Shown here piece by piece: positions 30,318 to 45,402 of a stretch of DNA of 64,000 bases. This stretch comes from a virus: the IMG/VR virus record IMGVR_UViG_3300031841_004047, one strand, 5' to 3'. Made by a program: the position numbers and the translations under genes. The first letter of the stretch is position 1; each line of letters begins with the position of its first letter. Below the pieces are notes generated by a model. It saw only the letters and a program-made list of their open reading frames with translations. It was not told the DNA's origin and searched no databases.

Positions 30318-32849
30318 TTGAGTTCATTCTATACATCTGTGAACCGTTACGGCAACAGCATACTTTATCGTGGCTATACGAGTAACGGTTCACCTATTAC
30401 ACAGAGATATAAATTCTCTCCAAAATTTTATTTACCAACAAAAGAAATTACTCAGTATCGCTCGTTTGACGGTGATCCCGTTAAGTCGGTAGAGTTTTCT
30501 ACAATGCGAGATGCTAAAGACTTTCTTGAACAATATTCAGAAATGGATGGTGTAAAAGTCTACGGCACTCGCAACTACATTCATCAGTTCATAACTGATA
30601 TGTATCCTGATAATATTTCCTTCAATCCTAATCATGTTAACGTAGTTAATATCGACATCGAGGTGGCCTCAGACGATGGCTTCCCCGTACCAGAAAAAGC
30701 TGCGTATCCCATCATATCGATTGCCCTGAAATCAAGCAAGTCTTCGATATATCAAGTGTGGGGTTTGGATACTTATGATCCACTCAAAACGGAACTCGAC
30801 ATGCAAGGTGATCAAATTAAGTATCACCATTGTGAATCGGAAGTTCACCTCCTTTCCTCGTTCTTGAGTTACTGGACGAAAAATTATCCAGACATCATCA
30901 CTGGTTGGAATACGCGGTTTTTTGATATTCCATATCTCGTAAATCGTATCTCTATCGTTGGTAGTGAAGAAGCAAAGAAACGATTGTCTCCATGGAAAAT
31001 GGTAGATGAGCGCAATATCGTTATGGGTGGTCGTCAACAATATGGATACGATATTGGTGGTATTCAACAAGCAGATTACTATGAACTATTTAAAAAGTTT
31101 GGTTATTCGTATGGTCCACAAGAATCATATAAGCTTGATCATATCTCATATGTAGTTCTTGGTGAAAAGAAACTGTCATACGAAGAAGCTGGTAATCTAT
31201 ATACACTATATAAGATGAATCACCAGAAATTTATCGATTATAACATTAAAGACGTACAGTTGGTTGACCGCATTGATAAAAAGATGGGGTTGATTAATCT
31301 GGTTATGACTATGGCTTATAAAGCAGGTGTTAACTTTGCGGATACTTTTGGTACTACATCGATATGGGAATCTATCATATATCGTAAGCTACTCCAAAAT
31401 AATATCATATCACCCGTGGATCAGATACGAAAAGTCGCGTATCAGAATAACTCCAATCCTAACATGATTGAGGGTGGCTACGTTAAGAATCCACAGGTCG
31501 GTGAACATGAATGGGTGGTATCTTTTGATCTAAACTCTCTGTATCCAAACATCATTGTTGAGTATAACATATCACCCGAAACTCTTGTTAAAGAAAAATC
31601 ATTTGGTGTCTTTGTTCAAGACGTAAGTCATTATCTTAACGATGATCCAACTAAATCATCTAAAGAGTATTCTATATGTGCAAGTGGTGTACCCTTCTCT
31701 CATGAAAAACAAGGTATCATTCCGGAACTTATCGTTGAGTATTATGCTGAACGTAGTGAAATAAAAAAGAAAATGCTGCATGCAAAATCACAATATGAAA
31801 AGACGAAGTCTACGTATCTTGAGTCTGAGATTAACCAGCTTGAAAACAATCAGATGGCTATCAAGATCTTGATGAACTCACTTTATGGTGCTTTGGCTAA
31901 CAAGTACTTTAAATATTTTGACACAGCACTCGCCGAATCCGTAACTCTGACCGGTCAGCTTTCTATCAAGTGGGCGGAAAAAGCTATCAATAGAGAAATG
32001 AATCGCATACTTGGTACAGATAAAGACTATGTAATAGCGATTGATACCGATTCAGTCTATATCAATATGGGTCCACTCGTAAAGAAACTGAATCCTTCAG
32101 ATCCAGTCAAAGCACTTGATAAGATATGTAAAGAACACTTTGAAAAAATTATTGCTGATGCTTACGGTGAGCTATTCAATAAGATGAATGCCTACACGCC
32201 AAGAATGGAAATGGGAAGGGAAGTTATAGCTGATCGTGGTATCTGGATGGCTAAGAAAAGATATATTCTTAACGTACATAACAACGAAGGTGTACAATAC
32301 GCTGAACCAAAACTTAAGATCATGGGTATCGAAGCAATTAAGTCTTCTACACCTGAAGTTGTTCGAGATAAGTTCAAAGAAATATTTAAAGTTATTATAA
32401 CTGGAAATGAATCGGATACAAGAAAATTTATAAACAATTTTAAACAATACTTTAAATCTCTTCCTCCCGAATCAGTTGCTTTTCCTCGAGGAGTTCAAGA
32501 AGTAGATAAATGGTCTGATCGTTTAAAAATCTATATTAAAGGTACACCTATTCATGTTAGAGGTGCTTTGCTATATAATCATACTATAAAAGATAAAGCA
32601 CTCGAAAAGAAACATACTCTTATTCAATCTGGAGAAAAAATCAAGTTTTCTTACTTAAAAATGCCAAATCCTCTTCGTGAAAACGTGATATCTTTCCCAG
32701 ATTATTTACCAAGTGAGTTGAATCTTCATAAATATATAGACTATGACACTCAGTTTGAAAAAACATTTATCGAACCCTTAAATCCAATCCTTGAAGCGGT
32801 GGGTTGGTCAGTCAAAGAACAAGCAACACTAGAGGATTTTTTCGGATGA
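30318..32849 (+). CDS. gp43: Family B DNA polymerase gp43
   Basis: DIEVAS exonuclease, SFDLNSLYPNII, KILMNSLYGAL, DTDSVY; C-terminal TLEDFFG; no intein/intron seen. Confidence 0.98.
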   Translation: MSSFYTSVNRYGNSILYRGYTSNGSPITQRYKFSPKFYLPTKEITQYRSFDGDPVKSVEFSTMRDAKDFLEQYSEMDGVKVYGTRNYIHQFITDMYPDNISFNPNHVNVVNIDIEVASDDGFPVPEKAAYPIISIALKSSKSSIYQVWGLDTYDPLKTELDMQGDQIKYHHCESEVHLLSSFLSYWTKNYPDIITGWNTRFFDIPYLVNRISIVGSEEAKKRLSPWKMVDERNIVMGGRQQYGYDIGGIQQADYYELFKKFGYSYGPQESYKLDHISYVVLGEKKLSYEEAGNLYTLYKMNHQKFIDYNIKDVQLVDRIDKKMGLINLVMTMAYKAGVNFADTFGTTSIWESIIYRKLLQNNIISPVDQIRKVAYQNNSNPNMIEGGYVKNPQVGEHEWVVSFDLNSLYPNIIVEYNISPETLVKEKSFGVFVQDVSHYLNDDPTKSSKEYSICASGVPFSHEKQGIIPELIVEYYAERSEIKKKMLHAKSQYEKTKSTYLESEINQLENNQMAIKILMNSLYGALANKYFKYFDTALAESVTLTGQLSIKWAEKAINREMNRILGTDKDYVIAIDTDSVYINMGPLVKKLNPSDPVKALDKICKEHFEKIIADAYGELFNKMNAYTPRMEMGREVIADRGIWMAKKRYILNVHNNEGVQYAEPKLKIMGIEAIKSSTPEVVRDKFKEIFKVIITGNESDTRKFINNFKQYFKSLPPESVAFPRGVQEVDKWSDRLKIYIKGTPIHVRGALLYNHTIKDKALEKKHTLIQSGEKIKFSYLKMPNPLRENVISFPDYLPSELNLHKYIDYDTQFEKTFIEPLNPILEAVGWSVKEQATLEDFFG

Positions 32850-33589
32850 ATAACATGAACTACGTATTCGATGTAGACGGAACACTTACACCAAGTAGGA
32901 TGAAGATGGATCCTGTTTTCCAAAAGTTTTTTCTCGAGTTTGCGGATAGGAATAAGTGTTACTTAGTTACTGGTTCAGACTATGAAAAAACAGTTCAACA
33001 AGTTGGAAAAGAAATATGTGAAACAGTCATAACCGTATGGAACTGCTGCGGTAACAGCGTTTGGCAGAGAGGAGTTGAAGTTTACAGAGATTCGTGGAGA
33101 CTTCCTGATCATATGCGTAAATGGTTAGAAAAAAAGATAAAGACAAGTAAATTTAGTCTTAGAACCGGTGGCCACATTGAAGACAGACCTGGGCTGGTAA
33201 ACTTTACTGTCCTAGGAAGAAACTGCACACTTGGTGAAAGAATGCTGTATCGTCAATGGGATGAAGAAAATAACGAAAGAAAAACAATTGCAAGAGAATT
33301 TAATATTGCTTTCAACCACGAAGGTGTTGTAGCTCAAGTAGCAGGTGAAACCGGTCTTGATATAATGATGATAGGTTCTGATAAATCACAAGTAGCCATG
33401 AGCTTATTTGGACCTACGATGTTCTTTGGCGATAAGATGGAAGTGGGTGGTAATGATTACCCTTTAGCTCAGGAACTAAAACAGCGTGATGATAATGTCT
33501 GCATTGCAGTCAAAGACTGGAAAGATACACAAAAATATTTATTTGGATTGTCATATGAGGGTTTACAAGAAAGAGTAAATATTGTATAA
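32846..33589 (+). CDS. HAD-IIB phosphomannomutase (eukaryotic PMM-like)
   Basis: FDVDGTLTPSR, LVTGSD, IEDRPGLVNF, FFGDKM..GGNDYPL. Confidence 0.8.
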   Translation: MNNMNYVFDVDGTLTPSRMKMDPVFQKFFLEFADRNKCYLVTGSDYEKTVQQVGKEICETVITVWNCCGNSVWQRGVEVYRDSWRLPDHMRKWLEKKIKTSKFSLRTGGHIEDRPGLVNFTVLGRNCTLGERMLYRQWDEENNERKTIAREFNIAFNHEGVVAQVAGETGLDIMMIGSDKSQVAMSLFGPTMFFGDKMEVGGNDYPLAQELKQRDDNVCIAVKDWKDTQKYLFGLSYEGLQERVNIV

Positions 33590-33590
33590 T
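33562..33590 (+). promoter_or_regulatory. Early/middle promoter
   Basis: TTTACA-N17-TATAAT inside the 3' end of the PMM-like gene. Confidence 0.8.
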
Positions 33591-33609
33591 ATACAAAATG
33601 GAGAAAAAT

Positions 33610-34020
33610 ATGAGTGATTGGGCTTTTGATATCTACCAAATGCATAATAAGTTTGGTGTAAAAGAATGGTTTGAAAATAACAAACATGATAAAGAACTAA
33701 TGAAAACATACCTACGTTTTCGTTTGAATATGTGTAATGAAGAAATGGGTGAATGCTTTGATGCACTCGACAACGAAGATCCTGAAGAAATCGTAGATGG
33801 TCTTATTGATATCTGTGTATTTGCTATCGGTACTCTTGATGTCTTTGGTGTAGATGCCAATGAAGCATGGAATCGTATCTACGAAGCAAACATGGCAAAG
33901 TCACCTGGTGTGAAAGAAGGTAGACCTAATCCATTTGGTTTACCAGATCTAATCAAACCCGACGGATGGGAATCACCTAACCACGAAGGTAATCATGGAA
34001 GTCTCAGCGACCTTTTTTAA
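33610..34020 (+). CDS. All-alpha NTP pyrophosphohydrolase (MazG/PRA-PH-like; possible dCTPase/dUTPase)
   Basis: EEMGE...EIVDGLID...EANMAK; GGAG RBS before ATG 33610. Confidence 0.78.
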   Translation: MSDWAFDIYQMHNKFGVKEWFENNKHDKELMKTYLRFRLNMCNEEMGECFDALDNEDPEEIVDGLIDICVFAIGTLDVFGVDANEAWNRIYEANMAKSPGVKEGRPNPFGLPDLIKPDGWESPNHEGNHGSLSDLF

Positions 34021-34930
34021 AAACATATATGATAACAAAACGCACAAGCGCTTTGACTTTGAAGACTTCAGTAAGTTTGAAGAGTTCTTGTACAAGTTAT
34101 CGAGAAGAAGGCTGAAGGGTAAGAAAGACGCCGCGCTTATGTCACCCGCAACTTATGTCGAGGGTACTACACGTGCTAATAAGAACGTAGTCAGTTGGGC
34201 TGGCTGGGCAGCCATTGATGTTGATGATCACGAGTTTAAAGGAGATCTGAAAAATGAATTGGCTTCCACTCATGGTAAATGGCATTATGTTTGCTATTCT
34301 ACTGCTAGCTCTAGAGAAAGTTTACCAAAGTTTAGGCTATGTTTCCCACTTAGAACAAGAGTTGAACCAGACAAGATCAGACATTTCTGGTTCGCCCTTA
34401 ACAAAGAGTTCGGATCGCTCGGCGATGAACAAGCTAAAGATCTATCACGAATGTATTATATCCCTGGCACGTACGATGACGCTTTCAACTTTATTTTTAC
34501 TAATACTGGCGATTTTCTAGATCCTCAGACAATTATGGATAAACACTCGTATGTTGAAAAGAAAACCGGAAGCTTTCTTGACAGATTGCCCACTGAGATA
34601 CAAAAACAAATCGTAGAACATCGCAAGAAAAAAATGGACAATACTAGTATATCTTGGACTAGTTATGAAGACTGTCCTTTTGTAAATAAAAACATGATCC
34701 GTGATTTTAAAAACATCGCTCATGTCGATAATAGTGGTAGATACGCAATGATCTATAAGATTATGGTATCCATCGCAAGTAACGCAGTTGATAGGCGTTA
34801 TCCAATAAGCGTATATGAAATCGTAGAGTTAGTCAGACAGCTAGATGCTGACACGGCTCGTAGATATGAAAACAGACCATTGAATGTAGAAGCAGATAGG
34901 GCTATAGAGTATGCATACCGAAACGTTTGA
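33995..34930 (+). CDS. Archaeo-eukaryotic-type primase-like protein
   Basis: AAIDVD, YSTASS, KFRLCFPL, KDLSRMYYIP, helical C-terminal domain. Confidence 0.7.
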   Translation: MEVSATFFKNIYDNKTHKRFDFEDFSKFEEFLYKLSRRRLKGKKDAALMSPATYVEGTTRANKNVVSWAGWAAIDVDDHEFKGDLKNELASTHGKWHYVCYSTASSRESLPKFRLCFPLRTRVEPDKIRHFWFALNKEFGSLGDEQAKDLSRMYYIPGTYDDAFNFIFTNTGDFLDPQTIMDKHSYVEKKTGSFLDRLPTEIQKQIVEHRKKKMDNTSISWTSYEDCPFVNKNMIRDFKNIAHVDNSGRYAMIYKIMVSIASNAVDRRYPISVYEIVELVRQLDADTARRYENRPLNVEADRAIEYAYRNV

Positions 34931-35360
34931 TTATGATATGAGTTTTAATATTTCTGATATTATTAACGTCGATGAATGGCATGAAAGGGCTATGAATGAA
35001 GCTAAACAGATTCATAGTAAAAAAAGTACAAGAAGAGGTCGTACTCTTAAGGAAATTTATGAAACTTGTAAGTACGGGCATGCCGCTGAGCAGTACCTCA
35101 TAGAAACGGGTTGGACTGACGATGAAAGACCATATAAAGATTTGTTAGACCCATACCTTGATCCGGTTGAGATAAAAGTAACACAAGGAAAATACTATAT
35201 ACCATATGTTCTTGAAAGCTGCAGAAAAGCTAAGCTTGATAAATGGAGAAAATATCCAGACATAGTTTATATTTTTATAAACAATAAGAAAGACGGTGAG
35301 TACATACATGAAGGAGTGTATGTTTGGGATGGAAAAAAATTTGCAAGAAATACATTTTAG
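34911..35360 (+). CDS. Putative PD-(D/E)XK nuclease
   Basis: GHAAEQYL...YKDLLDP..PVEIKVT. Confidence 0.5.
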   Translation: MHTETFDYDMSFNISDIINVDEWHERAMNEAKQIHSKKSTRRGRTLKEIYETCKYGHAAEQYLIETGWTDDERPYKDLLDPYLDPVEIKVTQGKYYIPYVLESCRKAKLDKWRKYPDIVYIFINNKKDGEYIHEGVYVWDGKKFARNTF

Positions 35361-35363
35361 GGG

Positions 35364-35392
35364 TTTACATTTCATGAAAAATATGTTAGTAT
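35364..35392 (+). promoter_or_regulatory. Early promoter with extended GGGGTTTACA -35
   Basis: TTTACA-N17-TAGTAT; 22-nt upstream block identical to 63001-63022. Confidence 0.7.
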
Positions 35393-35425
35393 ATTTTTGC
35401 ATGAAACTTAAAGGACAAAAATAAA

Positions 35426-35995
35426 ATGGCTTACGAGGAAATAAATGGAATACAAATTATAGGCCGTTCCCCTTGGATACCTATTTCAAAAATACCAACA
35501 AAAGATACGGCTGATTTTTTAGATTTAAATGAAAAATATGGTACGTGTGGAATATACCAAGTTGCCGAAACAAAATATATAGAAGAAATAGGTAATGAAG
35601 TAATACACGATAAAATAGGCTATACTGGTAAATCAGGTAGCATTCTTCAAAGAACTTACGATATACGTCAACCAAAAGGTACTCACGGCGCTGGACGTTA
35701 TATCCGTCAAAACGATCTTTGCAAAGAAGCTGAAGTTAAAATACGCTATATTTACACATCTTCGGAAGATTATAAAAGTCTTGAAGACTATATTCATCAT
35801 GAAACAACACGTAATTATGGTTTTCGATTTGCTTGGAAAGACGCGTCACAAGGTAATGTTGGGGTATATTCACAATGGCTTGAATTATCTAAACGATTAA
35901 CAGCTGATGAAATATTATCAGGAATTCCAAATTTAAAAGAATTGGCTATAGAAAAAAACATAGAAGAATTTCAAGAAAGGTTGAATGAAGTATGA
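35426..35995 (+). CDS. GIY-YIG-like endonuclease
   Basis: TCGIYQV...KIGYTGKS..ILQR...LEDYIH. Confidence 0.55.
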   Translation: MAYEEINGIQIIGRSPWIPISKIPTKDTADFLDLNEKYGTCGIYQVAETKYIEEIGNEVIHDKIGYTGKSGSILQRTYDIRQPKGTHGAGRYIRQNDLCKEAEVKIRYIYTSSEDYKSLEDYIHHETTRNYGFRFAWKDASQGNVGVYSQWLELSKRLTADEILSGIPNLKELAIEKNIEEFQERLNEV

Positions 35996-36354
35996 AAGAT
36001 AAGTACTCACTAAAGTTTCTTCAGCGTTGTGCTGAGATACAAATTAAAAAGGGTAATGATTACCAAAACCCAAACTCACGTGTAAGACAAGCACACTACT
36101 ATCCACGTGGTTGTGCTACTATTCTTGACACTATGGCAGCAAAAGTCTTACGTATGCAATCAGTTCTTGAAGCTATGGAACTTGATCCAAACTATCAGCC
36201 AAACTTTGAGTCACTTGAAGACTCGTGTGTTGATATTGCAAACTACGCTTCGTTCTTTGCTGCTTATATGAATGGTGCAATTGATGGCCAACATCCTGAC
36301 TATGATTTTCTAAATCGTCCAAAAAATAAAGTAGAACATATTAGTGAAGAATAA
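35992..36354 (+). CDS. Nucleotide-modification-associated alpha-helical protein (Nmad1/DUF1599-like)
   Basis: KKGNDYQ...AKVLRM...ESLEDSCVDIANYASF. Confidence 0.65.
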   Translation: MKDKYSLKFLQRCAEIQIKKGNDYQNPNSRVRQAHYYPRGCATILDTMAAKVLRMQSVLEAMELDPNYQPNFESLEDSCVDIANYASFFAAYMNGAIDGQHPDYDFLNRPKNKVEHISEE

Positions 36355-36521
36355 TGTGGGTTCTGTTTGTCATAAATCCAGTCTTTGATATTGATACGCC
36401 AGCATTAAGATGGACACAATACTCAGAGTTTGAAACTCATGAAAGCTGTCTTGTAACTAAAGTCTTGATAGAGGAGCAGTTCAATATGAATGAACTGGCT
36501 ATTTGTGTTAAAGATGAATGA
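36354..36521 (+). CDS. Hypothetical protein (55 aa, below ORF-track cut-off)
   Basis: MWVLFVINP...FETHESCL...LAICVKDE; TAATG-coupled. Confidence 0.6.
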   Translation: MWVLFVINPVFDIDTPALRWTQYSEFETHESCLVTKVLIEEQFNMNELAICVKDE

Positions 36522-36750
36522 GTTTAGAATTGGTATATTTAATCTTTTAAGAAAGATTATAGGCGGAAGCAGTGTACTTCTAGCAGTCATATATACACTA
36601 GGTCATATAATCATTGCCATGACTTGTAACTACTTAATAACCGGAGCTAGATTAGATCTTGCTGCGGTTGATGCGCTTATAGAACCTATCATTAATGGTT
36701 TCTGGTTCTATGCTTTACATAAGATTTGGAAAGGGTTTCAGAATGAGTGA
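36514..36750 (+). CDS. DUF2061-like membrane protein
   Basis: LAVIYTLGHIIIAM....ITG...LAAVDALIEPIINGFWFYALHKIW. Confidence 0.7.
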   Translation: MNEFRIGIFNLLRKIIGGSSVLLAVIYTLGHIIIAMTCNYLITGARLDLAAVDALIEPIINGFWFYALHKIWKGFQNE

Positions 36751-37072
36751 TTATGCAGTATTAACAGCTGTTCTACAGTTTAGAACAAGATATGTCATTC
36801 CTACGAGTGACATCAAAGACTGTGATCCAGAAACTTTTATTAAAGATTCCGTGACTTGCAATGAAGTTGAAGAGTTTAGTCAATTATGTTTAAATGAAAA
36901 CATTGTTGATACACAGTTAATGTCAGAAGAAGAAGTATTAAAACTATTTGACAGAGATAATGATTATCTGGCTGGTTGGTCAAAAGAAAAGAAAATTGAA
37001 TGGATTGGAGATTGGGCAGGCCGTTGGTCAGCAGAAAATTTCAAAGATAAGGACGATGGAAATGTATCATAA
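36743..37072 (+). CDS. Hypothetical protein
   Basis: Overlap-coupled ORF; FRTRYVIP, EEFSQLCLNENI. Confidence 0.7.
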   Translation: MSDYAVLTAVLQFRTRYVIPTSDIKDCDPETFIKDSVTCNEVEEFSQLCLNENIVDTQLMSEEEVLKLFDRDNDYLAGWSKEKKIEWIGDWAGRWSAENFKDKDDGNVS

Positions 37073-37391: not shown

Positions 37392-37403
37392 AAGGATTAA
37401 ACA

Positions 37404-37839: not shown

Positions 37840-37863
37840 AAGAACTATGGATGGTGAAAAATA

Positions 37864-38346: not shown

Positions 38347-38453
38347 TTCAAGACTTAATAACAGTAAGTCCGGTGATTGTAATTATCTCCATAATTATTA
38401 TATGGCCAAGTGCGGTAGAAGAATGGAGAAAGAGAAAGAATAAAAATGAGTAG
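38340..38453 (+). CDS. Possible small membrane protein (37 aa)
   Basis: TTG start; LIQDLITVSPVIVIISIIIIWPSAVEEWRKRKNKNE fills the gap exactly. Confidence 0.4.
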   Translation: MLIQDLITVSPVIVIISIIIIWPSAVEEWRKRKNKNE

Positions 38454-39291
38454 ATCTTTAAAGATTACTATTATAGGTCATGGGTTTGTCGGGAAAGCCA
38501 TTGATTATGCTTTTCAGTATAACGTTCAAAAACAAATCATAGATCCTAAAATAGGAGTAAACTTGAGTGACGTAACATTAAACTCCGATGTTACGTTCGT
38601 ATGCGTGCCGACTCCTATGCACGAAAATGGAAAGTGTGACATATCAATAATAAGTGAAGTCATAAAACAAATAAAGCAAAGAAGATCTGGTTTGATAGTT
38701 ATTAAGTCTACCGTTCCACCTGATCAAATAGAAAATCTTTTTAGAGGTACAGCTATATCAAGAATGGTTTACAACCCAGAGTTTCTTACAGAAAGAAATG
38801 CAAATGAAGATATACTAAATCCTTCGATGCATATTTTCGGAGGAGATAATAATGCTACCGAAAGACTAGAAAAAATATATAATGAGTACAGTATATGTAA
38901 ACCATGTCAAGTATTTCATGTTTCTGCTACTGACGCAAGTTTTATAAAATACGGAATAAATACTTTTCTTGCAACTAAACTAATATGGTTCAATGAACTA
39001 TATGACACAGTAAATAATTTTGGAGGCAACTTTGGAAAAATTGCAAACGCTATTGGGGCCGATCCAAGAATCGGACATTCCCATACTCGTGTTCCTGGGT
39101 TTGACAATCGTCGTGGTTTTGGTGGTGCATGTTTTCCCAAAGATGTAAGCGCTTTTGTCAACTTTACGGATCATATGCCTATCTTAGAATATGTTATGAA
39201 TAAAAACAACAATTATAGATTGTCTTATGAAAAAAATGATAGAGAAGTCGAACAAAACGTGAACTATGAGAATAAGAAAGAGAGTATATAA
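38446..39291 (+). CDS. UDP-glucose/GDP-mannose dehydrogenase family protein (lacks C-terminal domain)
   Basis: IIGHGFVG, VCVPTP, IKSTVPP, YNPEFL, GFGGACFPKD. Confidence 0.88.
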   Translation: MSRSLKITIIGHGFVGKAIDYAFQYNVQKQIIDPKIGVNLSDVTLNSDVTFVCVPTPMHENGKCDISIISEVIKQIKQRRSGLIVIKSTVPPDQIENLFRGTAISRMVYNPEFLTERNANEDILNPSMHIFGGDNNATERLEKIYNEYSICKPCQVFHVSATDASFIKYGINTFLATKLIWFNELYDTVNNFGGNFGKIANAIGADPRIGHSHTRVPGFDNRRGFGGACFPKDVSAFVNFTDHMPILEYVMNKNNNYRLSYEKNDREVEQNVNYENKKESI

Positions 39292-39980
39292 TGATAATCC
39301 CTAGTGTAAAAGATATTCGTGAGTTCTTTGTCGGTGAACTTAAAGACGAAGCTTATACTATAGATAAGACCGGAGCTAAGACTATAGAAATGATTGGTGC
39401 TTCGTTCATAGCCGATGAGTCTTCTATATTTGGTACACCTAATACCGACTACATATCTCAAGAAATGTTGTGGTATACAAGCATGTCGACAAATATTAAA
39501 GACATATACGGAGAACACAGAGACCCGCCTTCTGCATGGCAGTATGCCGCGAACCAATTTGGTGAGATTAACTCTAACTACGGTTTGTTAATATATTCCG
39601 AAAAGTATTACAGCCAGTTTGAAAGAGTGTGTGACGAGTTGTTTGAAAACCCTGATGGTCGAAGAGCAACTATGATTTATAACAGACCATCGATATGGGT
39701 GGAGTATAATGAAAATGGAAAATCAGATTTTATTTGTACTAACGCTGTCACTTACTATATTCGTGATAATCTACTGCATGCTGTAGTTCAAATGCGTTCC
39801 AATGATGTTGTGTATGGTTATAAGAATGACTGGGCATGGCAAAACCGAGTGATGCACGACATAGTTCATGATCTTAATTTCTCAAATGGAAATGAAGATT
39901 TGGAAGTAGGTAAGATGGTTTGGCAGGTTCAGAACTTGCATGTATATGAACGTCACTTTGATCTAGTAAAAAATATTTAA
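39291..39980 (+). CDS. gp42: dCMP hydroxymethylase (T4 gp42-like)
   Basis: KTGAKTIEMIGASF, GEINSNYG, DGRRA, SDFICTN, MRSNDVVYGYKNDWAWQ (cytosine-specifying Asp), LHVYERHF. Confidence 0.9.
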   Translation: MIIPSVKDIREFFVGELKDEAYTIDKTGAKTIEMIGASFIADESSIFGTPNTDYISQEMLWYTSMSTNIKDIYGEHRDPPSAWQYAANQFGEINSNYGLLIYSEKYYSQFERVCDELFENPDGRRATMIYNRPSIWVEYNENGKSDFICTNAVTYYIRDNLLHAVVQMRSNDVVYGYKNDWAWQNRVMHDIVHDLNFSNGNEDLEVGKMVWQVQNLHVYERHFDLVKNI

Positions 39981-39990
39981 GGATGTTCTT

Positions 39991-40224
39991 ATGAGCAATT
40001 TGATATTGATCACCGATATCCTTGAAACAAAAGTAAGAAAAGAAAAAGAACTACAGTACTATCAGAAAGAATTAGAAAAACTTCAGAAAAAAATGTTCTT
40101 TGTTAAAAAGGATATTGAACTAACAAACCTGATCATTAATATGATTGAGAAAGAAAATATAATAGACTTTAAAGAGCAAGTCTTAATACGACAGGAAAAA
40201 AATGATACCACCTCAGATAATTAA
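39991..40224 (+). CDS. Hypothetical coiled-coil protein
   Basis: ITDILETKVRKEKELQYYQKELEKL. Confidence 0.75.
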   Translation: MSNLILITDILETKVRKEKELQYYQKELEKLQKKMFFVKKDIELTNLIINMIEKENIIDFKEQVLIRQEKNDTTSDN

Positions 40225-40684
40225 GATTTTTGAAAAAGATATGGCTAAAGGTCTTCACTGGACCACTGTGATCACCGAAAGAGCAATGCTAGCAGTAATA
40301 GGTGCTTTAACTGTAATCGCAGCTAGTTTTAATGTGTACTCAATGATAGTATCAATGAAGATAGAATTAGCGGATTTGTTTCTTTTATTCATCTATACAG
40401 AAATAGTCGGCATGGTTGGTGCTTACTACATAAGTAATAGGATACCAGTTACTCTTCCTATCATTATAGCTATGACTGCTTTATGTAGGCTTATTATTCT
40501 TCATTCTAAAGATGCTAACCCATGGGTACTAGTAGCAGAAGCTGGAGCGATCGTCGTTCTAGCCGGAGCCGCGTATCTCATGAGTGCTAAGGAAAAACTA
40601 AGCCTGGAAAAGAAAGAAAAGCGAAAAAAAGAATATGATGCGGGGTTCAAAAAGACAGAAAAAAAAGATTTAGACGATGAATAG
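40202..40684 (+). CDS. psiE: Phosphate-starvation-inducible PsiE family membrane protein
   Basis: LADLFLLFIYTEIVGMVGAYY...RIPVTLPIIIAMTALCRLIIL. Confidence 0.82.
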   Translation: MIPPQIIKIFEKDMAKGLHWTTVITERAMLAVIGALTVIAASFNVYSMIVSMKIELADLFLLFIYTEIVGMVGAYYISNRIPVTLPIIIAMTALCRLIILHSKDANPWVLVAEAGAIVVLAGAAYLMSAKEKLSLEKKEKRKKEYDAGFKKTEKKDLDDE

Positions 40685-41126
40685 TAGGTATACTAAATGG
40701 GATAGAAGATATCTGGATCTGGCATATACGGTTAGTAAATGGTCAAGAGATCCATCAACACAAATCGGCGCGGTCGCGATTGGATCCAAGGGTCAAGTTT
40801 TATCTCAAGGTTATAACGGCTTTCCTAGAGGAATAAAAGATACTCTAGATCGATATCATCATAGAGAAACTAAATATAAGCTTATTGTTCATGCTGAACA
40901 AAATTTAATATACAATGCTACATACAATGGTGTCTCATTGGATGGATCTACACTGTATGTAACGGGACTTCCGGTTTGTTCCGAATGTGCTAAAGGTGTT
41001 ATACAAGTCGGTATCAAAAGAGTTGTTATGCCACATATAGATGATATGAAATCTTGGAAAGAATCTTGGGAGTTGTCTGCTTCTATGTTCAGAGAAGCCG
41101 GAATATTATGGGATTTCATAATATAA
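40677..41126 (+). CDS. cd: dCMP deaminase
   Basis: SRDPSTQIGAV, GYNGFPRG, HAEQN, PVCSECAK. Confidence 0.92.
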   Translation: MNSRYTKWDRRYLDLAYTVSKWSRDPSTQIGAVAIGSKGQVLSQGYNGFPRGIKDTLDRYHHRETKYKLIVHAEQNLIYNATYNGVSLDGSTLYVTGLPVCSECAKGVIQVGIKRVVMPHIDDMKSWKESWELSASMFREAGILWDFII

Positions 41127-41158
41127 AAATTTTAATTTTTTGATTGATCACTTTATAG

Positions 41159-41187
41159 TTTACATAACTATACTACTATGATATAAT
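41159..41187 (+). promoter_or_regulatory. Early/middle promoter for the UDG-GT-cupin-NTase-MTase operon
   Basis: TTTACA-N17-TATAAT. Confidence 0.82.
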
Positions 41188-41207
41188 AACAAAAAATAGG
41201 AAAAACA

Positions 41208-41702
41208 ATGAAAATAAAAAGCTTAATAGTCATGGGTCTTAATCCTTCTAAGAGTCCATCACGAAAAGGTTCTACTATCCCAAAGCTACACTCTTGGATG
41301 TATGACAGCCTAGAAGTAGACTCATTCTTTATGTCTAATGTTTCTCATGATCCAGACTGGGATTTTAAATATAGATCTATAGATAAAAATCATGTCATTG
41401 AAACTTTAAGAGATCATGATATCATAATAGCTTTAGGTAGCACGGTGTATAACTACTTAAAGAGGATGGGGTTTAAGAATATGTTTAAGCTTCCTCATCC
41501 ATCACCTAGGAATCGTCAGTTAAATGACAAATCTTTCGAAATAAAAATTTTAAATGAATGTAAAGAGTATTTGACTCAGGAAGGCTTCTATGAAAATAGC
41601 AATAGGCAAAGTGGGAAAATCAATAAAGTTTGGTCCGGAGTCGTTAAGCACCGGAAAAAAATCAATGACGGCGGGCTCGATAGATGCACGTGTAATCTTT
41701 GA
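41208..41702 (+). CDS. Uracil-DNA glycosylase superfamily protein
   Basis: IVMGLNPS, IIALG, LPHPSPRNR. Confidence 0.7.
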   Translation: MKIKSLIVMGLNPSKSPSRKGSTIPKLHSWMYDSLEVDSFFMSNVSHDPDWDFKYRSIDKNHVIETLRDHDIIIALGSTVYNYLKRMGFKNMFKLPHPSPRNRQLNDKSFEIKILNECKEYLTQEGFYENSNRQSGKINKVWSGVVKHRKKINDGGLDRCTCNL

Positions 41703-42828
41703 ACTTTTAATTAGGTTTAATCCACAACACACGTTTTATATAGTTGGTAGATCAAACTATTCTCGTCTTAAACCTGAGATAAGAGATAAGATCAACGTTC
41801 ATAACAACGTTGTTGATCTGTGGAGTGGTTTTAACGAGTGGTTTGATAATCAAGACGATAAAGATGAAATGACGGAGTCATGGAGGTACATGGATCACGT
41901 CATTGAATCCGGACATACATTTGACACGGGTATATTTATTGCAGGAGGAGTACTTGAGTACGCGGTTCAAGGAAAAACTCTAAAGAACGGCGAACCTATT
42001 AAAACTTTAAACGCAGCGACTAAGTATGCAGCTCCTATTCATCACTTCATAAATATTACGAAGCTACCATACGTGATGCTGGTCACTGATCCAAGATGCT
42101 ACCCGAAACCAACAAAAGATCTTATGGTACCACCTCGTAGAATATTGTCTCAGTACGATGAAGTTGTAGACGTCGAACATCGTGTAACTTATGAGGATGA
42201 CGATATGGTCATCGATAAAGTTAAATCCGTATACTCCGGTATAGAATCTCTATACGTAGTCGAAGAACAGTGGAACGAAAAAGAAACAAGTCTTGAAGAC
42301 TTCTTTGGTGATCCAGACCCAGCCCCTGAACGTGACATCAACATGGTACTATTCCTAAACGAAGGTAACCCTTCAAGATATGAAGACTTAAAGAAATATA
42401 TCTTAAATGACATAGAAGATGTTAACGTCTATGGAGTATGGAACGATAAAGCTTTACAAGATCCACGAATAGAGCAGATAGCGATGGCTGAGCTTACTCA
42501 TCTTTTCCCTAGGATTAGATACACGTTTTGTATACCAATCGCTCCCGGTTGGGCGACCGGAAAGTTTTGGGAGATGACTAAGTACGGAATCATTCCGTTT
42601 ATGCATCCGAGTTATGATGAAGGTAAAAACATTGGTTTTCCAGAGGAGCTAAGAGTTAAAGATTCAAAAGATTTGTTAGAAAAAATAAGTATGTACAACT
42701 CTGATAAATTATGTTATAATAATATACATGAAAGGCTTCAGAATATGGTCACTCCGGATCATAAATCTGGCAAGTTTATAAATGATATGGTTATGAAAAA
42801 TGTTATGGAGATAGTCAATGAAGATTGA
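41590..42828 (+). CDS. DNA glycosyltransferase, T4 beta-glucosyltransferase-like (GT-B)
   Basis: MKIAI start, VTDPR (cf. T4 Bgt TDIR catalytic Asp), ILSQ, KFWEM, and a C-terminus matching Bgt as recalled. Confidence 0.7.
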   Translation: MKIAIGKVGKSIKFGPESLSTGKKSMTAGSIDARVIFELLIRFNPQHTFYIVGRSNYSRLKPEIRDKINVHNNVVDLWSGFNEWFDNQDDKDEMTESWRYMDHVIESGHTFDTGIFIAGGVLEYAVQGKTLKNGEPIKTLNAATKYAAPIHHFINITKLPYVMLVTDPRCYPKPTKDLMVPPRRILSQYDEVVDVEHRVTYEDDDMVIDKVKSVYSGIESLYVVEEQWNEKETSLEDFFGDPDPAPERDINMVLFLNEGNPSRYEDLKKYILNDIEDVNVYGVWNDKALQDPRIEQIAMAELTHLFPRIRYTFCIPIAPGWATGKFWEMTKYGIIPFMHPSYDEGKNIGFPEELRVKDSKDLLEKISMYNSDKLCYNNIHERLQNMVTPDHKSGKFINDMVMKNVMEIVNED

Positions 42829-43150
42829 AAAAAGACATATTTCTGAGTTTACTGGTGGATGGTTTATTGGAAACTTTGAGCCATCGGTTCTTAAAAGCGA
42901 TGATTTCGAAGTATCAATTAAGCTGCATCCTAAGGGAGAAGTTTGGCCAAAGCATTATCACAAAGTGGCTACCGAGTATAACTATGTGATAGACGGCATA
43001 GTAGAAATAGATGGCATAAAATATGAAAAAGATGACATCTTCATTATTCATCCAAACTTTGTCGTAGATCCCAATTTTCTTGAAGACTGCAGAATAGTAT
43101 GTGTAAAAACACCATGCGTACCTGGAGATAAGTATGAGGTTGAAAGATAA
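42818..43150 (+). CDS. Cupin protein
   Basis: GGWFIGNFEPS, KHYHKVATEYNYVIDG, VKTPCVPGDKY. Confidence 0.75.
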   Translation: MKIEKRHISEFTGGWFIGNFEPSVLKSDDFEVSIKLHPKGEVWPKHYHKVATEYNYVIDGIVEIDGIKYEKDDIFIIHPNFVVDPNFLEDCRIVCVKTPCVPGDKYEVER

Positions 43151-44215
43151 ATGAGAGTAATTATTCCAATGGCCGGACTGGGGTCAAGATTTACAAACAA
43201 GGGATATAAGACACACAAACCGTTAATCGAAGTTAACGGTAAAACTCTTATTAGATACGCAGTTGAGTCATTAAACATAAGTGCTCATTACGTATTCGTA
43301 TGTAGGGACTTAGGAGGTTCATACCTTGAAAACTTAGAATCAGAAATAAAAGACATTACTTACGGTCGATACGAAATAAAAGTAATAGATCATATGACGT
43401 CTGGAGCAGCAGAAACCGCTCTTTTAGGTTGTGATAGCGAGTATGACGGAGAATTAATTGTCACCAACTGTGATCAGTATTTAGACTGGGACTCTGAAGC
43501 TTTCCTTAAAGAATCAAGAAAATATGATGGTTCTGTACTAACTTACGACTCGACTGATCCTAAAAATTCTTTCGTAGAGTTCGCGAACAAAAAAGTAGTA
43601 AGAATGGTCGAGAAACAAGCTATATCAAACAATGCTTTAGTAGGAGTACACTACTGGAAAAAAGCATCGGATTTCATTAACTCTACTAAATCTTCTCTAG
43701 CTAACTTTACCTCAAAAGAATCTTATGTGTCTGAAACATATAACTACTTAATAGCTGATGGTAAAAAAATTGGAGCAATATCAATTATGGATGGTACTTA
43801 TTGGTCCACCGGAACTCCTGAAGATCTGGCATATTTCAAAGGGATGATATCCGAATATTATACCTCTAAAAATAATACATATTTTATTGATCTTGATGGT
43901 ACAATCTTTATGCATGCACATAGGTACTCCAACTTAAAAAATGATGTTCAGTTGTGTCCAGGTGTTCTTGAAACTTTAGATGAACTTGATTCGAGAGGTG
44001 ATACGATCATACTTGTTTCGGCAAGAAAAGAGTCTGCGAGATCAATGACTGAGAAATTACTTGATGATTTCATGATTCCTTATGATCAGCTTATACTTGG
44101 TGTATCTCAAGGATGTAGGATAGTCATAAACGATATTATCACGAAGTCATCTTTTCCAAGAGCAAGAGCCGTGAATGTAATCACGGACAAAGGATGGAAA
44201 GCAAACGATTTATGA
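43151..44215 (+). CDS. Sugar-phosphate nucleotidyltransferase fused to C-terminal HAD-like domain
   Basis: IIPMAGLGSRF..KGY..HKPLI, NCDQ, GTPEDL; then FIDLDGTI HAD motif I. Confidence 0.82.
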   Translation: MRVIIPMAGLGSRFTNKGYKTHKPLIEVNGKTLIRYAVESLNISAHYVFVCRDLGGSYLENLESEIKDITYGRYEIKVIDHMTSGAAETALLGCDSEYDGELIVTNCDQYLDWDSEAFLKESRKYDGSVLTYDSTDPKNSFVEFANKKVVRMVEKQAISNNALVGVHYWKKASDFINSTKSSLANFTSKESYVSETYNYLIADGKKIGAISIMDGTYWSTGTPEDLAYFKGMISEYYTSKNNTYFIDLDGTIFMHAHRYSNLKNDVQLCPGVLETLDELDSRGDTIILVSARKESARSMTEKLLDDFMIPYDQLILGVSQGCRIVINDIITKSSFPRARAVNVITDKGWKANDL

Positions 44216-45402
44216 ATTATGCGAGTATAGTACCTTTAATCGGAGGAGAGACATTCGGTATGCAAGAAGTGTTTGGTCAAAAGCCAGACTACATCTTATC
44301 ATACTCGGATTTTGAAGCAAATGATAGACAACTTCTTAACTATTATAATAATAGTGTTCCTTATTATAAGCTTGATCAAGGTGGTTCTGCCCCTCACAGA
44401 GTGGATGTTATCAATACTGTATGCCCTTGTGCGGGTCTTTCTTCACTTAGTCCTACTAGCAGCGCTAGTAACACTACTAATGATTGGATGGTCAAGTCTG
44501 CCCAGTATATTCTAGAAGAAGTACAACCGACTGTCTTTTGGGGAGAAAATGCTCCTAGACTAGCCAGCAAGATGGGTGAGCCTATAGTAAATAAGCTAAG
44601 GAAGATCGGGAAAGATAATGGTTACACCATGACTCTTTATAAAACAAAATCTTTACTTCATGGCTTATCTCAAGTAAGAGACAGATGCTTTTACTTCTTT
44701 TGGAAAGGCAACCATGTTCCAGTTTTTGCATACTACAACAACTTATTAAGGGAGAGTATCGAAGATACTATAAGGTCATCATCTAGTAATCAAATAGACG
44801 AAATGTATGATATGCAGGCCAAGACTTCTAAGCCTTCAGATGATCCATACTATAAATATGTTTTAGAAGAGATTGAAGATGGTATAACACATCAAGATTT
44901 TTTTAAAAAAATTAAAAAAACTACCAATCCATTGGATTATATCGAGCAAAAAGGTATTAAATATAATACTGTAGCTAAGTGGATGAAGATGAAGGGATAT
45001 GACAAGTATGAAGTCAAATGTCAAAGAATGCATGAAAAGCTTGAGTCTGGTGGAAACATAATGAGAAAGGCTACTACAATCGCAAAGGATTATATCGGCG
45101 CTTTTGTAGGTAACATGGCAACTGACATTACACACCCTGATGTTGATAGGTACATAAACGTAAGAGAAGCTCTTGATATAATGAAGATGCCTAAAGATTT
45201 TCAGCTTCAAGGAGGAACAAAAAACATTAATATGATATGTCAAAACGTTCCGGTTACTACTGCTAGAGATATGGCTTTTAATGTATCAGCATACCTAGGA
45301 GGACATTTAACTACTCATAAATCTGATTTTGCTGTTCAGGATAATAAAACAACTAAGTTTTGGAGAGAGCCTGAACCCTCAACTCTTGAAGAGTTTTTGT
45401 AG
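44212..45402 (+). CDS. Atypical C5 cytosine DNA methyltransferase
   Basis: CPCAGLS (catalytic PC), GENAP, HGLSQVRDR, INVREA...PKDF, QNVP; motif I degenerate (VPLIGG). Confidence 0.72.
   Translation: MNYASIVPLIGGETFGMQEVFGQKPDYILSYSDFEANDRQLLNYYNNSVPYYKLDQGGSAPHRVDVINTVCPCAGLSSLSPTSSASNTTNDWMVKSAQYILEEVQPTVFWGENAPRLASKMGEPIVNKLRKIGKDNGYTMTLYKTKSLLHGLSQVRDRCFYFFWKGNHVPVFAYYNNLLRESIEDTIRSSSSNQIDEMYDMQAKTSKPSDDPYYKYVLEEIEDGITHQDFFKKIKKTTNPLDYIEQKGIKYNTVAKWMKMKGYDKYEVKCQRMHEKLESGGNIMRKATTIAKDYIGAFVGNMATDITHPDVDRYINVREALDIMKMPKDFQLQGGTKNINMICQNVPVTTARDMAFNVSAYLGGHLTTHKSDFAVQDNKTTKFWREPEPSTLEEFL

What the first reader, a model, noticed from the sequence alone, without database searches (positions are those of the whole stretch)
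32826..45402. Same clamp-binding-like peptide on the polymerase, the DNA glycosyltransferase and the methyltransferase
Seen: gp43 ends ATLEDFFG* (32826-32849). The Bgt-like GT has ETSLEDFFG in an acidic linker (42289-42309). The MTase ends PSTLEEFL* (45382-45402). gp55 ends DLTEFLE* and the pyrophosphohydrolase ends SLSDLF*. Established: T4-family gp43, gp55 and gp33 bind the gp45 clamp through short acidic-hydrophobic peptides, and T4 alpha-glucosyltransferase interacts with gp45. Inference: the modifying enzymes ride the sliding clamp, so nascent DNA is modified at the fork. This would be a replisome-coupled toolbelt.
Basis: partly seen in the sequence, partly recalled or inferred. Interest (0 to 1): 0.75.

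Follow-up and report, generated by a model that had tools for sequence, protein, structure and literature searches.

The report
Polymerase's clamp-docking peptide on DNA modifiers
In this marine T4-like phage, the short tail peptide that tethers the DNA polymerase to the sliding clamp also sits on a DNA glycosyltransferase and a DNA cytosine methyltransferase, and in three phage lineages these enzymes copy their own polymerase's tail, so DNA modification is probably hitched to the replication clamp.

Summary
gp43 ends TLEDFFG*. A glycosyltransferase with the T4 beta-glucosyltransferase fold carries SLEDFFG in an acidic inter-domain linker. A C5-methyltransferase ends TLEEFL*, and gp55 ends DLTEFLE*.

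The peptide behaves like a short linear motif:
- In the GT linker only L, F and F are conserved.
- GT homologues that lack the linker insertion carry the same motif at their extreme C-terminus.
- About 117 of the 120 closest MTase homologues keep the tail.

The strongest evidence is co-variation across three phage lineages. The polymerase, GT and MTase tails always match within a genome:
- Lineage A: acidic ...LEDFF.
- Lineage B: basic ...xLF*.
- Lineage C: acidic ...LDDW*.

I predicted the polymerase tails of lineages B and C before reading them, and both predictions held.

T4's own alpha-GT, beta-GT and Dam have no such peptide. A phage without gp43/gp45 has a motif-less GT.

Physical binding to gp45 was not tested, because the complex predictor was unavailable. 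The pyrophosphohydrolase tail is poorly conserved and is not supported as a clamp peptide.

Verdict: probable clamp-docking peptides that couple DNA modification to the replisome. This is a phage counterpart of DNMT1-PCNA, and a new variant of a known kind.

The parts
25532..26206 (+). gp45 sliding clamp, the presumed docking target
   Evidence: phrog_223 3e-72 and PF09116 3.8e-12. A profile of 35 homologues hits RB69 gp45 1b77/1b8h at 1.8e-40 and T4 gp45 1czd at 2.1e-36.
26428..27366 (+). gp44 clamp-loader large subunit (context; gp62-like gene at 27971-28351)
   Evidence: Used as query (33% identity to lineage B homologues). Syntenic loci carry an AAA/Gp44_lid gene in the same position after gp45.
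30318..32849 (+). gp43 family-B DNA polymerase. The C-terminal tail ...GWSVKEQATLEDFFG* is the reference clamp-binding peptide (nt 32826-32846).
   Evidence: phrog_262 E = 0, aligned to profile position 852/856. T4 gp43 ends ...KASLDFLFG*. Lineage A homologues end [ST]L[ED][DE]FF[GSAV]*.
20555..21169 (+). gp55 late sigma factor with tail DSDLTEFLE*
   Evidence: phrog_234 9e-50. Orthologues in complete genomes end DLSEFMMED* and PLTDFFDK*. T4 gp55 ends SLDFLYEAND*. gp55 and gp33 bind gp45 through a C-terminal LDFL motif (PMC9690074).
41590..42828 (+). GT-B DNA glycosyltransferase with the T4 beta-glucosyltransferase fold
   Evidence: AF2 pLDDT 90.1, pTM 0.89. Foldseek top hits are T4 BGT 1qkj, 1nzd and 1c3j, E = 5e-10 to 7e-9. 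132 homologues found.
42259..42330 (+). Acidic inter-domain linker insertion of the GT (residues ~224-247). It holds the internal motif SLEDFFG (residues 234-240, nt 42289-42309).
   Evidence: pLDDT falls to 76/61/81 over residues 221-250, with a short helix at 235-239, between strands 206-215 and 250-255. Column entropy: L235 1.7, F238 0.73, F239 0.40 bits, against 2.5-3.3 bits in the flanks. The insertion is absent in distant homologues, which carry the motif at the C-terminus instead.
44194..45402 (+). C5-cytosine methyltransferase-fold enzyme (probable true start at M7, nt 44212). C-terminal tail REPEPSTLEEFL* at nt 45367-45399.
   Evidence: PF00145 4.5e-16. AF2 pLDDT 95: last strand at 388-391, coil at 392-397, terminal helix at 398-401 with pLDDT 73-79. 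The tail is conserved in about 117 of the 120 closest homologues and in IMG/VR loci.
33598..34020 (+). MazG-like pyrophosphohydrolase ending GSLSDLF*: a weak, unsupported clamp-peptide candidate
   Evidence: PF01503 1.5e-8. Homologue tails are mostly unlike it (GRLPK*, GTLTGV*, GKFNDI*). A few resemble it (GNLSDIF*, GNISDIL*).
38446..44215 (+). DNA-modification gene cluster around the GT (context): UDP-glucose dehydrogenase-like 38446-39291, ThyA/pyrimidine hydroxymethylase-like 39291-39980, dCMP deaminase 40677-41126, NTP-transferase/HAD 43151-44215
   Evidence: Pfam and PHROG hits. The same gene neighbourhood is seen in related contigs.

Best explanation
The [ST]L[ED]xF[FL] peptides on the BGT-fold glycosyltransferase and on the C5-methyltransferase are clamp-interaction motifs. 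They mimic the C-terminal tail by which gp43, and also gp55, dock onto the gp45 sliding clamp.

Proposed mechanism: clamps loaded by gp44/62 on replicating phage DNA recruit the two modifying enzymes through this peptide. The enzymes are thereby concentrated on, and probably slide along, newly made phage DNA. Modification would then be fast, complete and restricted to clamp-loaded (phage) DNA.

Shown here:
- the peptides exist and are conserved as short linear motifs in exposed segments;
- they have moved position within the GT family;
- they change together with the polymerase tail across three phage lineages.

Inferred, not shown:
- that the common partner is gp45 (by homology with T4/RB69, where the gp43 and gp55 tails bind gp45);
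- that binding stimulates modification.
For: 1. Same peptide as the phage's own gp43 tail, which is positionally homologous to the T4 gp43 tail SLDFLFG*. gp45 is a clear homologue of RB69/T4 gp45, including entry 1b8h.

2. Short-linear-motif signature in the GT. Only L235, F238 and F239 are conserved in a linker of variable length and sequence. The region has the lowest pLDDT of the model body and lies between the two domains.

3. Positional plasticity. Of 118 full-length GT homologues, 96 have the motif in the linker. Ten lack the insertion and end in ...SLEDFFS*, GIEDFFA*, TLEDFFG*, GLDNFFE* and the like. In L002, gp43 ends TLEDFFS*, the GT ends GIEDFFA* and the MTase ends SSLEGFI*.

4. MTase tail. 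It is conserved in about 117 of the 120 closest homologues while the preceding residues vary. It sits after the last strand of a confident fold.

5. Three-lineage co-variation, with two predictions made before reading the polymerase tail.
- Lineage B (G004): PolB C-part ...VRTQLF*, GT ...AKSLF*, a GT25-family GT ...NKQLF*, MTase ...KSKNLF*. Seven LF* ends among 317 ORFs against 1.4 expected.
- Lineage C (L156): PolB C-part ...SLDDW*, GT ...ELDDW*, MTase ...VQSDW*. Three of 21 ORFs end in DW, binomial p about 1e-6.

6. Specificity. In the complete related genome G006 the tail motif marks gp43, gp55, a T4 RNase H-type exonuclease and the MTase: 5 hits (the fifth a baseplate hub, likely chance) against 1.2 expected.

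7. Negative contrasts. T4 alpha-GT, beta-GT and Dam lack any such peptide. The GT homologue of Enterococcus phage Planchet, which has a PolIII-alpha and no gp43/gp45, lacks it.
Against: - No physical or modelled binding to gp45 was obtained. The complex predictor was unavailable.
- All characterised gp45-binding peptides are C-terminal (own knowledge). An internal one in a GT linker has no precedent for gp45, although extra residues after the motif are tolerated: T4 gp55 ...LDFLYEAND*, and the L009 MTase ...LDAFFDLHS*.
- Not universal. Pseudoalteromonas phage XG4 is T4-like (gp43 ends SLDDLFM*), yet its GT and MTase homologues have no such tail.
- The clamps of lineages B and C were not identified. 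Co-variation there shows a partner shared with the polymerase tail, but not which partner.
- Only three lineages are available and related sequences are not independent, so the p-values are rough.
- The strict motif was defined post hoc.
Confidence: 0.72

Rival explanations
1. The shared peptide binds a common partner other than the sliding clamp. Candidates are the clamp loader, the gp32-type single-strand-binding protein, a scaffold of a phage replication compartment, or a host factor. Polymerase and modifiers would be co-localised, but not through gp45.
For: The co-variation shows only that the polymerase, GT and MTase tails change together. No clamp was identified in lineages B and C. Binding was not tested.
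Against: In T4 and RB69 the homologous gp43 tail and the gp55 tail bind gp45 (PMC9690074; the RB69 clamp-peptide structure 1b8h is own knowledge; one search shows the homology). In lineage A genomes the motif also marks gp55 and an RNase H-type exonuclease, which are known clamp clients.
Confidence: 0.12
2. The peptides do bind the clamp, but their role is regulatory rather than catalytic coupling. They could compete with gp43 or gp55 for clamp sites to time replication or late transcription. Alternatively they simply retain the enzymes near phage DNA, without stimulating modification or making it processive.
For: Clamp sites are limited (three per trimer), and gp43, gp55, RNase H, GT and MTase would all compete for them. 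In T4, promoter strength rather than gp45 affinity largely sets the alpha/beta glucosylation ratio (PMC13216743).
Against: The enzymes bearing the motif are exactly those that must act on every newly made duplex. Several modification enzymes gained the tail independently (BGT-like GT, GT25-family GT, C5-MTase). That fits recruitment of catalysts better than regulation.
Confidence: 0.1
3. The resemblance is coincidental or structural. Acidic-aromatic segments would be common in these AT-rich phage proteomes, or would be intrinsic parts of each fold, with no shared partner.
For: The strict pattern was defined after seeing the three hits. Looser patterns are frequent (65 hits). A baseplate hub protein in G006 also ends in ...GVEDFF*.
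Against: Expected 0.02 strict hits against 3 observed. The motif is an island of conservation inside a variable linker. It relocates between linker and C-terminus. It lies outside the folded cores. Tail chemistry switches in step with the polymerase in three lineages.
Confidence: 0.03

Closest known systems
T4/RB69 gp45-interaction motif on gp43, gp55 and gp33 (C-terminal ...SLDFL[FY]...; RB69 clamp-peptide complex 1b8h)
   Same: Same clamp family. Same type of short hydrophobic-acidic-aromatic peptide, on a flexible terminal segment. The window's gp43 and gp55 carry it in the homologous position.
   Different: Here the peptide is also on DNA-modifying enzymes, and in the GT it is internal, in an inter-domain linker. 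The consensus is [ST]L[ED]xF[FL] rather than SLDFL[FY].
DNMT1-PCNA coupling through a PIP box in eukaryotes
   Same: A C5-cytosine methyltransferase is tethered to the replication clamp by a short motif so that newly made DNA is modified (PMC9690074).
   Different: Independent origin: a phage gp45 clamp rather than PCNA, a C-terminal tail rather than an N-terminal PIP box, and a small single-domain enzyme. Binding is not yet shown here.
T4 alpha-glucosyltransferase-gp45 interaction (Sommer et al. 2004, BBRC 323:809; PMC13216743)
   Same: A phage DNA glycosyltransferase proposed to work with the sliding clamp during replication.
   Different: T4 alpha-GT has no gp43-like peptide anywhere, and the interaction rests on in vitro co-purification only. 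The window's GT has the beta-GT fold, T4 beta-GT does not bind gp45, and the window's enzyme carries an explicit copy of the polymerase peptide.
Bacterial beta-clamp-binding motif (QL[SD]LF and C-terminal QLxLF variants; own knowledge)
   Same: Lineage B tails (...RTQLF*...AKSLF*...SKNLF*...NKQLF*) resemble it in sequence and in being C-terminal.
   Different: This does not apply to the window, whose tails are acidic FF/FL. No DnaN-type clamp was found in lineage B contigs. Use of the host clamp is untested.
T4 beta-glucosyltransferase (PDB 1qkj, 1bgt; Pfam PF09198)
   Same: GT-B two-Rossmann fold. It is the best structural match (E = 5e-10, TM 0.53-0.66), and the gene sits in a ThyA/hydroxymethylase context.
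   Different: About 10% sequence identity and no Pfam hit. The window's protein is 60 residues longer and has the linker insertion with the motif. Acceptor base and sugar are unknown.

Membership tests
gp45-type clamp-interaction motif client | Peptide resembles the resident polymerase's C-terminal clamp-binding tail | tested here: met
   gp43 TLEDFFG*, GT SLEDFFG, MTase TLEEFL*. The same match is seen within L002, L009, G006 and G007.
gp45-type clamp-interaction motif client | Motif lies in a flexible, exposed segment outside the folded core | tested here: met
   GT: inter-domain linker, pLDDT 61-76, against 90+ elsewhere. MTase: 11-residue tail after the last strand, pLDDT 73-79. No coordinates were available, so solvent exposure was not computed.
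gp45-type clamp-interaction motif client | Motif residues conserved while the flanks vary (short-linear-motif signature) | tested here: met
   Entropy 0.4-1.7 bits at L, F and F, against 2.5-3.3 bits in the flanks. MTase tails.
gp45-type clamp-interaction motif client | The phage encodes a gp45-family clamp and its loader | tested here: met
   gp45 at 25532-26206 and gp44 at 26428-27366.
gp45-type clamp-interaction motif client | Physical binding of the peptide to the gp45 inter-domain pocket, in competition with the gp43 tail | not testable with these tools
GT-B DNA beta-glucosyltransferase-like enzymes | Two-Rossmann GT-B fold closest to T4 BGT | tested here: met
   Foldseek 1qkj, E = 5e-10, probability 1.00.
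GT-B DNA beta-glucosyltransferase-like enzymes | Sequence membership in Pfam PF09198 (T4 beta-GT) | tested here: not met
   No Pfam hit except a sub-threshold Glyco_trans_1_2 match (E = 0.008), and no PHROG hit. It should be described as BGT-fold, not as a Bgt family member.
GT-B DNA beta-glucosyltransferase-like enzymes | Glycosyl transfer to a hydroxymethylated pyrimidine in DNA | not testable with these tools
   Supported only by context: ThyA-like gene, dCMP deaminase and NDP-sugar genes nearby.
C5-cytosine DNA methyltransferase (PF00145) | Pfam DNA_methylase match above the gathering score | tested here: met
   59.6 bits against a cut-off of 22, E = 4.5e-16.
C5-cytosine DNA methyltransferase (PF00145) | Catalytic Pro-Cys (motif IV) and ENV-like motif VI | tested here: met
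   TVCPCAGLS and WGENAP are read directly in the translation. P78, C79, E118 and N119 are invariant or nearly invariant in 56 homologues.
C5-cytosine DNA methyltransferase (PF00145) | Canonical SAM-binding motif I (FxGxGG) | tested here: inconclusive
   The sequence reads IVPLIGGETFG, and P14, L15, I16, G17 and G18 are conserved in the subfamily. This is atypical, so the methyl-transfer chemistry is not proven.

The most novel reading that the evidence does not exclude
A general rule may hold for phages with hypermodified DNA. Their post-replicative modification enzymes (BGT-fold GT, GT25-family GT, C5-MTase) carry a modular docking peptide that copies whatever tail the resident replicative polymerase uses to hold its processivity clamp.

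The peptide has been re-invented or exchanged several times (acidic ...LEDFF, basic ...xLF*, acidic ...LDDW*). It can sit at the C-terminus or in an internal loop. It co-switches with the polymerase.

If so, tail matching would predict new clamp clients, and even unrecognised clamps, directly from sequence. It would be an independently evolved phage counterpart of DNMT1-PCNA coupling, and it would settle in principle the long-running T4 question of whether DNA glycosylation can be replisome-coupled.
Probability: 0.55. Interest if true: 0.82.

Novelty: new variant of a known kind. Interest (0 to 1): 0.72.

Why it matters
Clamp 'tool-belts' are textbook for polymerases, ligases, nucleases and, in eukaryotes, DNMT1. 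For phage DNA modification the only precedent is the T4 alpha-GT-gp45 pull-down, which has no known motif.

Here the modifying enzymes carry an explicit copy of the polymerase's clamp peptide, and evolution has kept the copies matched through three changes of tail chemistry. This gives three things:
- a sequence-level, mutable handle (FF->AA, tail swaps) to test whether DNA hypermodification is replisome-coupled;
- an explanation of how phages could modify only their own DNA, quickly enough to escape restriction;
- a simple rule, tail matching to the polymerase, for finding clamp clients in uncultured phages.

These enzyme families are abundant in marine metagenomes: 2,302 MTase and 132 GT homologues were found.

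Tried and rejected
- The search for related loci with the GT in viral contigs found nothing.
- ENA and JGI metagenome loci could not be searched as whole records. The contigs of P0074 and P0124 gave gene tables but no DNA. The contig of P0433 was too short.
- The initial idea that motif-less GTs come from phages without gp45 was rejected. P0116 comes from a T4-like phage and carries the motif at its C-terminus instead.
- A search for the clamp of lineage B failed: gp45 profile, PF09116 and PF02768 gave nothing.
- A 247-249-aa ORF next to the lineage B polymerase gene gave only weak signals: hmmsearch E = 0.03-0.07, hhalign probability 4.9%. It is reported as a lead, not a finding.
- The MazG-like tail as a clamp peptide was rejected as unsupported, because most homologues lack it.
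- The window ORFs ending PDFFVG* (head-tail adaptor, 1576-2331) and KEFFQGR* (62540-62944) were treated as chance.
- Cyanophage S-TIM5 and Pseudoalteromonas phage XG4 have MTase and GT homologues without tails. This shows the feature is lineage-specific, not universal.

Full report
**What is in the window.** The window is a T4-like marine myovirus, with about 36% G+C and all genes on one strand. At the DNA level it is only distantly related to cultured phages: about 66% identity over part of gp43 to Phage C48C1 and to cyanophages.

The replication module is typical of T4-like phages:
- gp55, 20555-21169;
- gp47/gp46, 21173-23949;
- gp45, 25532-26206;
- gp44, 26428-27366;
- gp62-like and RegA-like genes;
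- gp43, 30318-32849;
- UvsX, 45461-46510;
- gp41, 46797-48173.

Between gp43 and UvsX lies a DNA-modification cluster:
- MazG-like pyrophosphohydrolase;
- UDP-glucose dehydrogenase-like gene;
- ThyA/hydroxymethylase-like gene;
- dCMP deaminase;
- a 412-aa glycosyltransferase, 41590-42828;
- an NTP-transferase/HAD protein;
- a C5-methyltransferase-fold enzyme, 44194-45402.

**Check of the observation.**
- gp43 ends ...ATLEDFFG*.
- The GT has ...ETSLEDFFGDPDP... at residues 232-244.
- The MTase ends ...PSTLEEFL*.
- gp55 ends ...DLTEFLE*.
- The MazG-like protein ends ...SLSDLF*.

The strict pattern [ST]L[ED][DE]F[FL] occurs three times in 93 ORFs (20.7 k residues). Those three are exactly gp43, GT and MTase, against 0.02 expected from shuffles. 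The pattern was defined after the fact, so I give this little weight on its own.

**What the GT and the MTase are.**

The GT has no significant Pfam or PHROG match. Its AF2 model is confident (pLDDT 90.1, pTM 0.89). Its best structural matches are six T4 beta-glucosyltransferase entries (1qkj E = 5e-10, TM 0.53-0.66), followed by other GT-B enzymes. So 'Bgt-like' is right for the fold but not for sequence-family membership.

The motif lies between the last strand of the N-terminal domain (206-215) and the first strand of the C-terminal domain (250-255). This is the only internal stretch where confidence drops (76/61/81 per ten residues). The motif itself is predicted as a one-turn helix at 235-239.

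The MTase matches PF00145. It has the catalytic Pro-Cys and an ENA (ENV-like) motif, and an atypical motif I. It folds confidently (pLDDT 95). The fold ends with a strand at 388-391. After it come the coil EPEPST and a terminal one-turn helix, LEEF, of lower confidence. This architecture, an aromatic anchor, 5-6 variable residues and then the motif, is the same as in the gp43 tail (...GWSVKEQATLEDFFG*).

**Conservation.** The GT has 132 homologues, from 100% down to 30% identity.

In an alignment of 45 of them, the linker varies in length and sequence, except for an L-x-x-F-F island. Entropy is 1.7, 0.73 and 0.40 bits at L235, F238 and F239, against 2.5-3.3 bits around them.

Homologues at 34% identity or less lack the insertion altogether. 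Most of these carry the same peptide at the extreme C-terminus...ASLEDFFS*...GIEDFFA*...ATLEDFFG*...NTLESFFG*...GLDNFFE*...SSLNDFF*.

Of 118 full-length homologues:
- 96 have the motif in the linker;
- 10 have it at the C-terminus;
- 5 have degenerate linker variants;
- 4 end in ...DDW*;
- 3 have nothing recognisable.

A motif whose presence is kept while its position moves is hard to explain except by selection on the peptide itself.

For the MTase, about 117 of the 120 closest homologues (61-100% identity) end in [TS][LI]ExF[FLIM] or a close variant, while the preceding residues vary. The same holds in about 50 IMG/VR loci.

**Co-variation with the polymerase.** This is the main new evidence. 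A search of 50%-identity representatives of the MTase family showed two kinds of tail. Some are acidic and gp43-like. About 25-30 of 150 are basic and end in ...K-x-K-x-LF*.

*Lineage B.* In loci with LF-tailed MTases, the adjacent GT is a true homologue of the window's GT (26% identity, E = 2e-34). It lacks the linker insertion and has a C-terminal extension ending ...AKSLF*. I therefore predicted that the polymerase of this lineage would also end in LF. It does. The C-terminal half of the split PolB ends ...IVRTQLF* in two contigs (G004, G005), and it aligns to the gp43 profile up to position 839/856.

In the 238-kb contig G004, seven of 317 ORFs end in LF*. Shuffles give a mean of 1.4 and a maximum of 6 in 1,000 runs. 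Binomial p is about 2e-4. The seven include PolB, the BGT-like GT, a GT25-family glycosyltransferase and the MTase. The last three are adjacent genes.

*Lineage C.* The four GTs ending in ...DDW* allowed a second prospective test. In contig L156 the GT ends ...ELDDW*, the neighbouring MTase ends ...VQSDW*, and the PolB C-terminal part ends ...DSLDDW*. Three of 21 ORFs end in DW, where the per-protein expectation is 9e-4. That gives p of about 1e-6.

*Lineage A.* Within the window's own lineage, gp43 always ends [ST]L[ED][DE]FF[GSAV]*, and the MTase and GT peptides are acidic F-F/L/M types.

So there are three lineages with three tail chemistries, and in each one the modifying enzymes match their own polymerase.

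A quick maximum-likelihood tree of 56 MTases shows tail types clustered but switched several times. Well-supported branches force at least 7 changes for the acidic type and 3 for the LF type. This fits a modular peptide. My tail classes are crude and the tree search was not finished.

**Specificity and contrasts.**
- In the complete related genome G006 (220 kb, 258 ORFs), a C-terminal motif scan returns gp43, gp55, the MTase, a T4 RNase H-type exonuclease (phrog_107) and one baseplate hub protein. That is five hits against 1.2 expected. The first four are DNA or transcription enzymes. gp43, gp55 and RNase H are known gp45 partners in T4; the RNase H case is own knowledge, and gp55/gp33 are covered in PMC9690074.
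- In G007 the scan returns gp43, gp55 and one unidentified 785-aa protein (likely chance) at the C-terminus, and the GT internally. Its MTase ends ...SLEDFT*, which the scan pattern misses.
- T4's gp43 ends SLDFLFG* and its gp55 ends SLDFLYEAND*. T4 alpha-GT, beta-GT and Dam have no such peptide anywhere.
- Enterococcus phage Planchet replicates with a PolIII-alpha and has no gp43 or gp45. Its GT homologue has no motif.
- The feature is not universal. Pseudoalteromonas phage XG4 has gp45 and a gp43 ending SLDDLFM*, but tail-less GT and MTase homologues. The cyanophage S-TIM5 MTase has no tail either.
- The MazG-like tail is mostly not conserved. I do not count it as a clamp peptide.

**Mechanism.** gp45 is an unambiguous homologue of the RB69 and T4 clamps (1b77/1b8h at 1.8e-40, 1czd at 2.1e-36). 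The gp43 and gp55 tails occupy the positions of the T4 tails that bind gp45. The most economical reading is therefore that the GT linker peptide and the MTase tail dock in the same pocket of gp45.

Clamps are loaded only on replicating or nicked phage DNA. Docking would concentrate the enzymes on nascent phage DNA and let them track along it. This is what gp55 and gp33 do for late transcription, and what DNMT1 does on PCNA (PMC9690074).

Whether this happens at the fork or on clamps left behind cannot be decided here, nor how five or more clients share three sites per trimer. The steps 'binds gp45' and 'binding speeds modification' are inferred.

**Relation to the literature.** Three reports bear on T4 alpha-GT and gp45:
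- Sommer et al. 2004 (BBRC 323:809) reported the interaction in vitro.
- A December 2025 preprint saw no interaction, in vitro or in vivo.
- The peer-reviewed version (NAR 2026, PMC13216743) reports that alpha-GT, but not beta-GT, co-purifies with gp45 in vitro. It concludes that expression strength, not clamp affinity, mainly sets the alpha/beta ratio.

No motif is known in T4 alpha-GT, and I find none.

A 2023 survey of viral DNA glycosyltransferases mentions only that GT genes lie near gp45/clamp genes (10.1101/2023.12.21.572611).

Full-text searches found no report of polymerase-like clamp peptides on phage DNA GTs or MTases. The library is incomplete, so earlier work cannot be excluded.

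The scan's own notes hold a duplicate of this finding from an overlapping window, not followed up.

**Verdict.** It is a new variant of a known kind (clamp-interaction motifs and DNMT1-PCNA-like coupling). Two features were unexpected: an internal gp45-type motif that trades places with a C-terminal one, and three-way co-switching of tails with the polymerase.

Noticed in passing
L146:4608-5351 (-) in G004 and L109:3269-4018 (-) in G005: An orthologous 247-249-aa ORF next to the split PolB gene of lineage B. Its N-terminus (TNFLKRFSPVSSNLLL) resembles the gp45 N-terminus (LKNFASINSNIV). The clamp-profile signals are only weak (E = 0.03-0.07; hhalign probability 4.9%). It may be a highly divergent clamp for the ...xLF* tails.
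   Followed up: partly
L109, L110, L111-L113, L156:16403-19406, L006-L008: The family-B polymerase is split into two genes in lineages B and C and in Pseudoalteromonas phage XG4. In G005 a homing endonuclease (phrog_314, 2.7e-47) sits directly beside the C-terminal part.
   Followed up: partly
L127:3102-3953 (-) in G006: A T4 RNase H/FEN-type exonuclease (phrog_107, 4.6e-53) ends ...LLENVQEFL*. This is a likely clamp-binding tail on the Okazaki-fragment nuclease of a lineage A phage.
   Followed up: partly
L019 and L022 (IMG/VR contigs): Each contig encodes two paralogous C5-MTases of this family. All four end in ...S(K/T)xLF* (KTLF, TCLF, KILF).
   Followed up: no
window 44194-45402: The C5-MTase-fold enzyme has an atypical motif I (IVPLIGGETFG instead of FxGxGG) that is conserved across the subfamily. 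The cluster also encodes a dCMP deaminase and a ThyA-like hydroxymethylase, so which base is modified (5hmU or 5hmC route) and what the 'MTase' transfers are open questions.
   Followed up: partly
window 24285-25487: A compact ATP-dependent PEP carboxykinase gene (PF01293, 1e-89, 400 aa) lies between gp46 and gp45. This is an unusual auxiliary metabolic gene inside the replication module.
   Followed up: partly
window 40202-40684: A PsiE (phosphate-starvation-inducible) family membrane protein (PF06146, 7e-18) sits inside the DNA-modification cluster.
   Followed up: no
window 41208-41702: A 164-aa ORF with a marginal uracil-DNA-glycosylase superfamily match (25.4 bits against a cut-off of 24.3) overlaps the conserved GT start (41590) by 113 nt. 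Its real end or frame needs checking.
   Followed up: no
L116:4632-6245 (-) in G004: A 537-aa protein upstream of the lineage B clamp loader ends in an acidic ...AGDDMGF* tail. This is reminiscent of SSB-type acidic tails. Not examined further.
   Followed up: no
L003 (Pseudoalteromonas phage vB_Psh_XG4, PP712099.1): A cultured T4-like phage with GT and MTase homologues (about 31% identity) that have no docking tails, although its gp43 ends SLDDLFM*. It is a natural negative control for experiments. The record is unannotated.
   Followed up: partly
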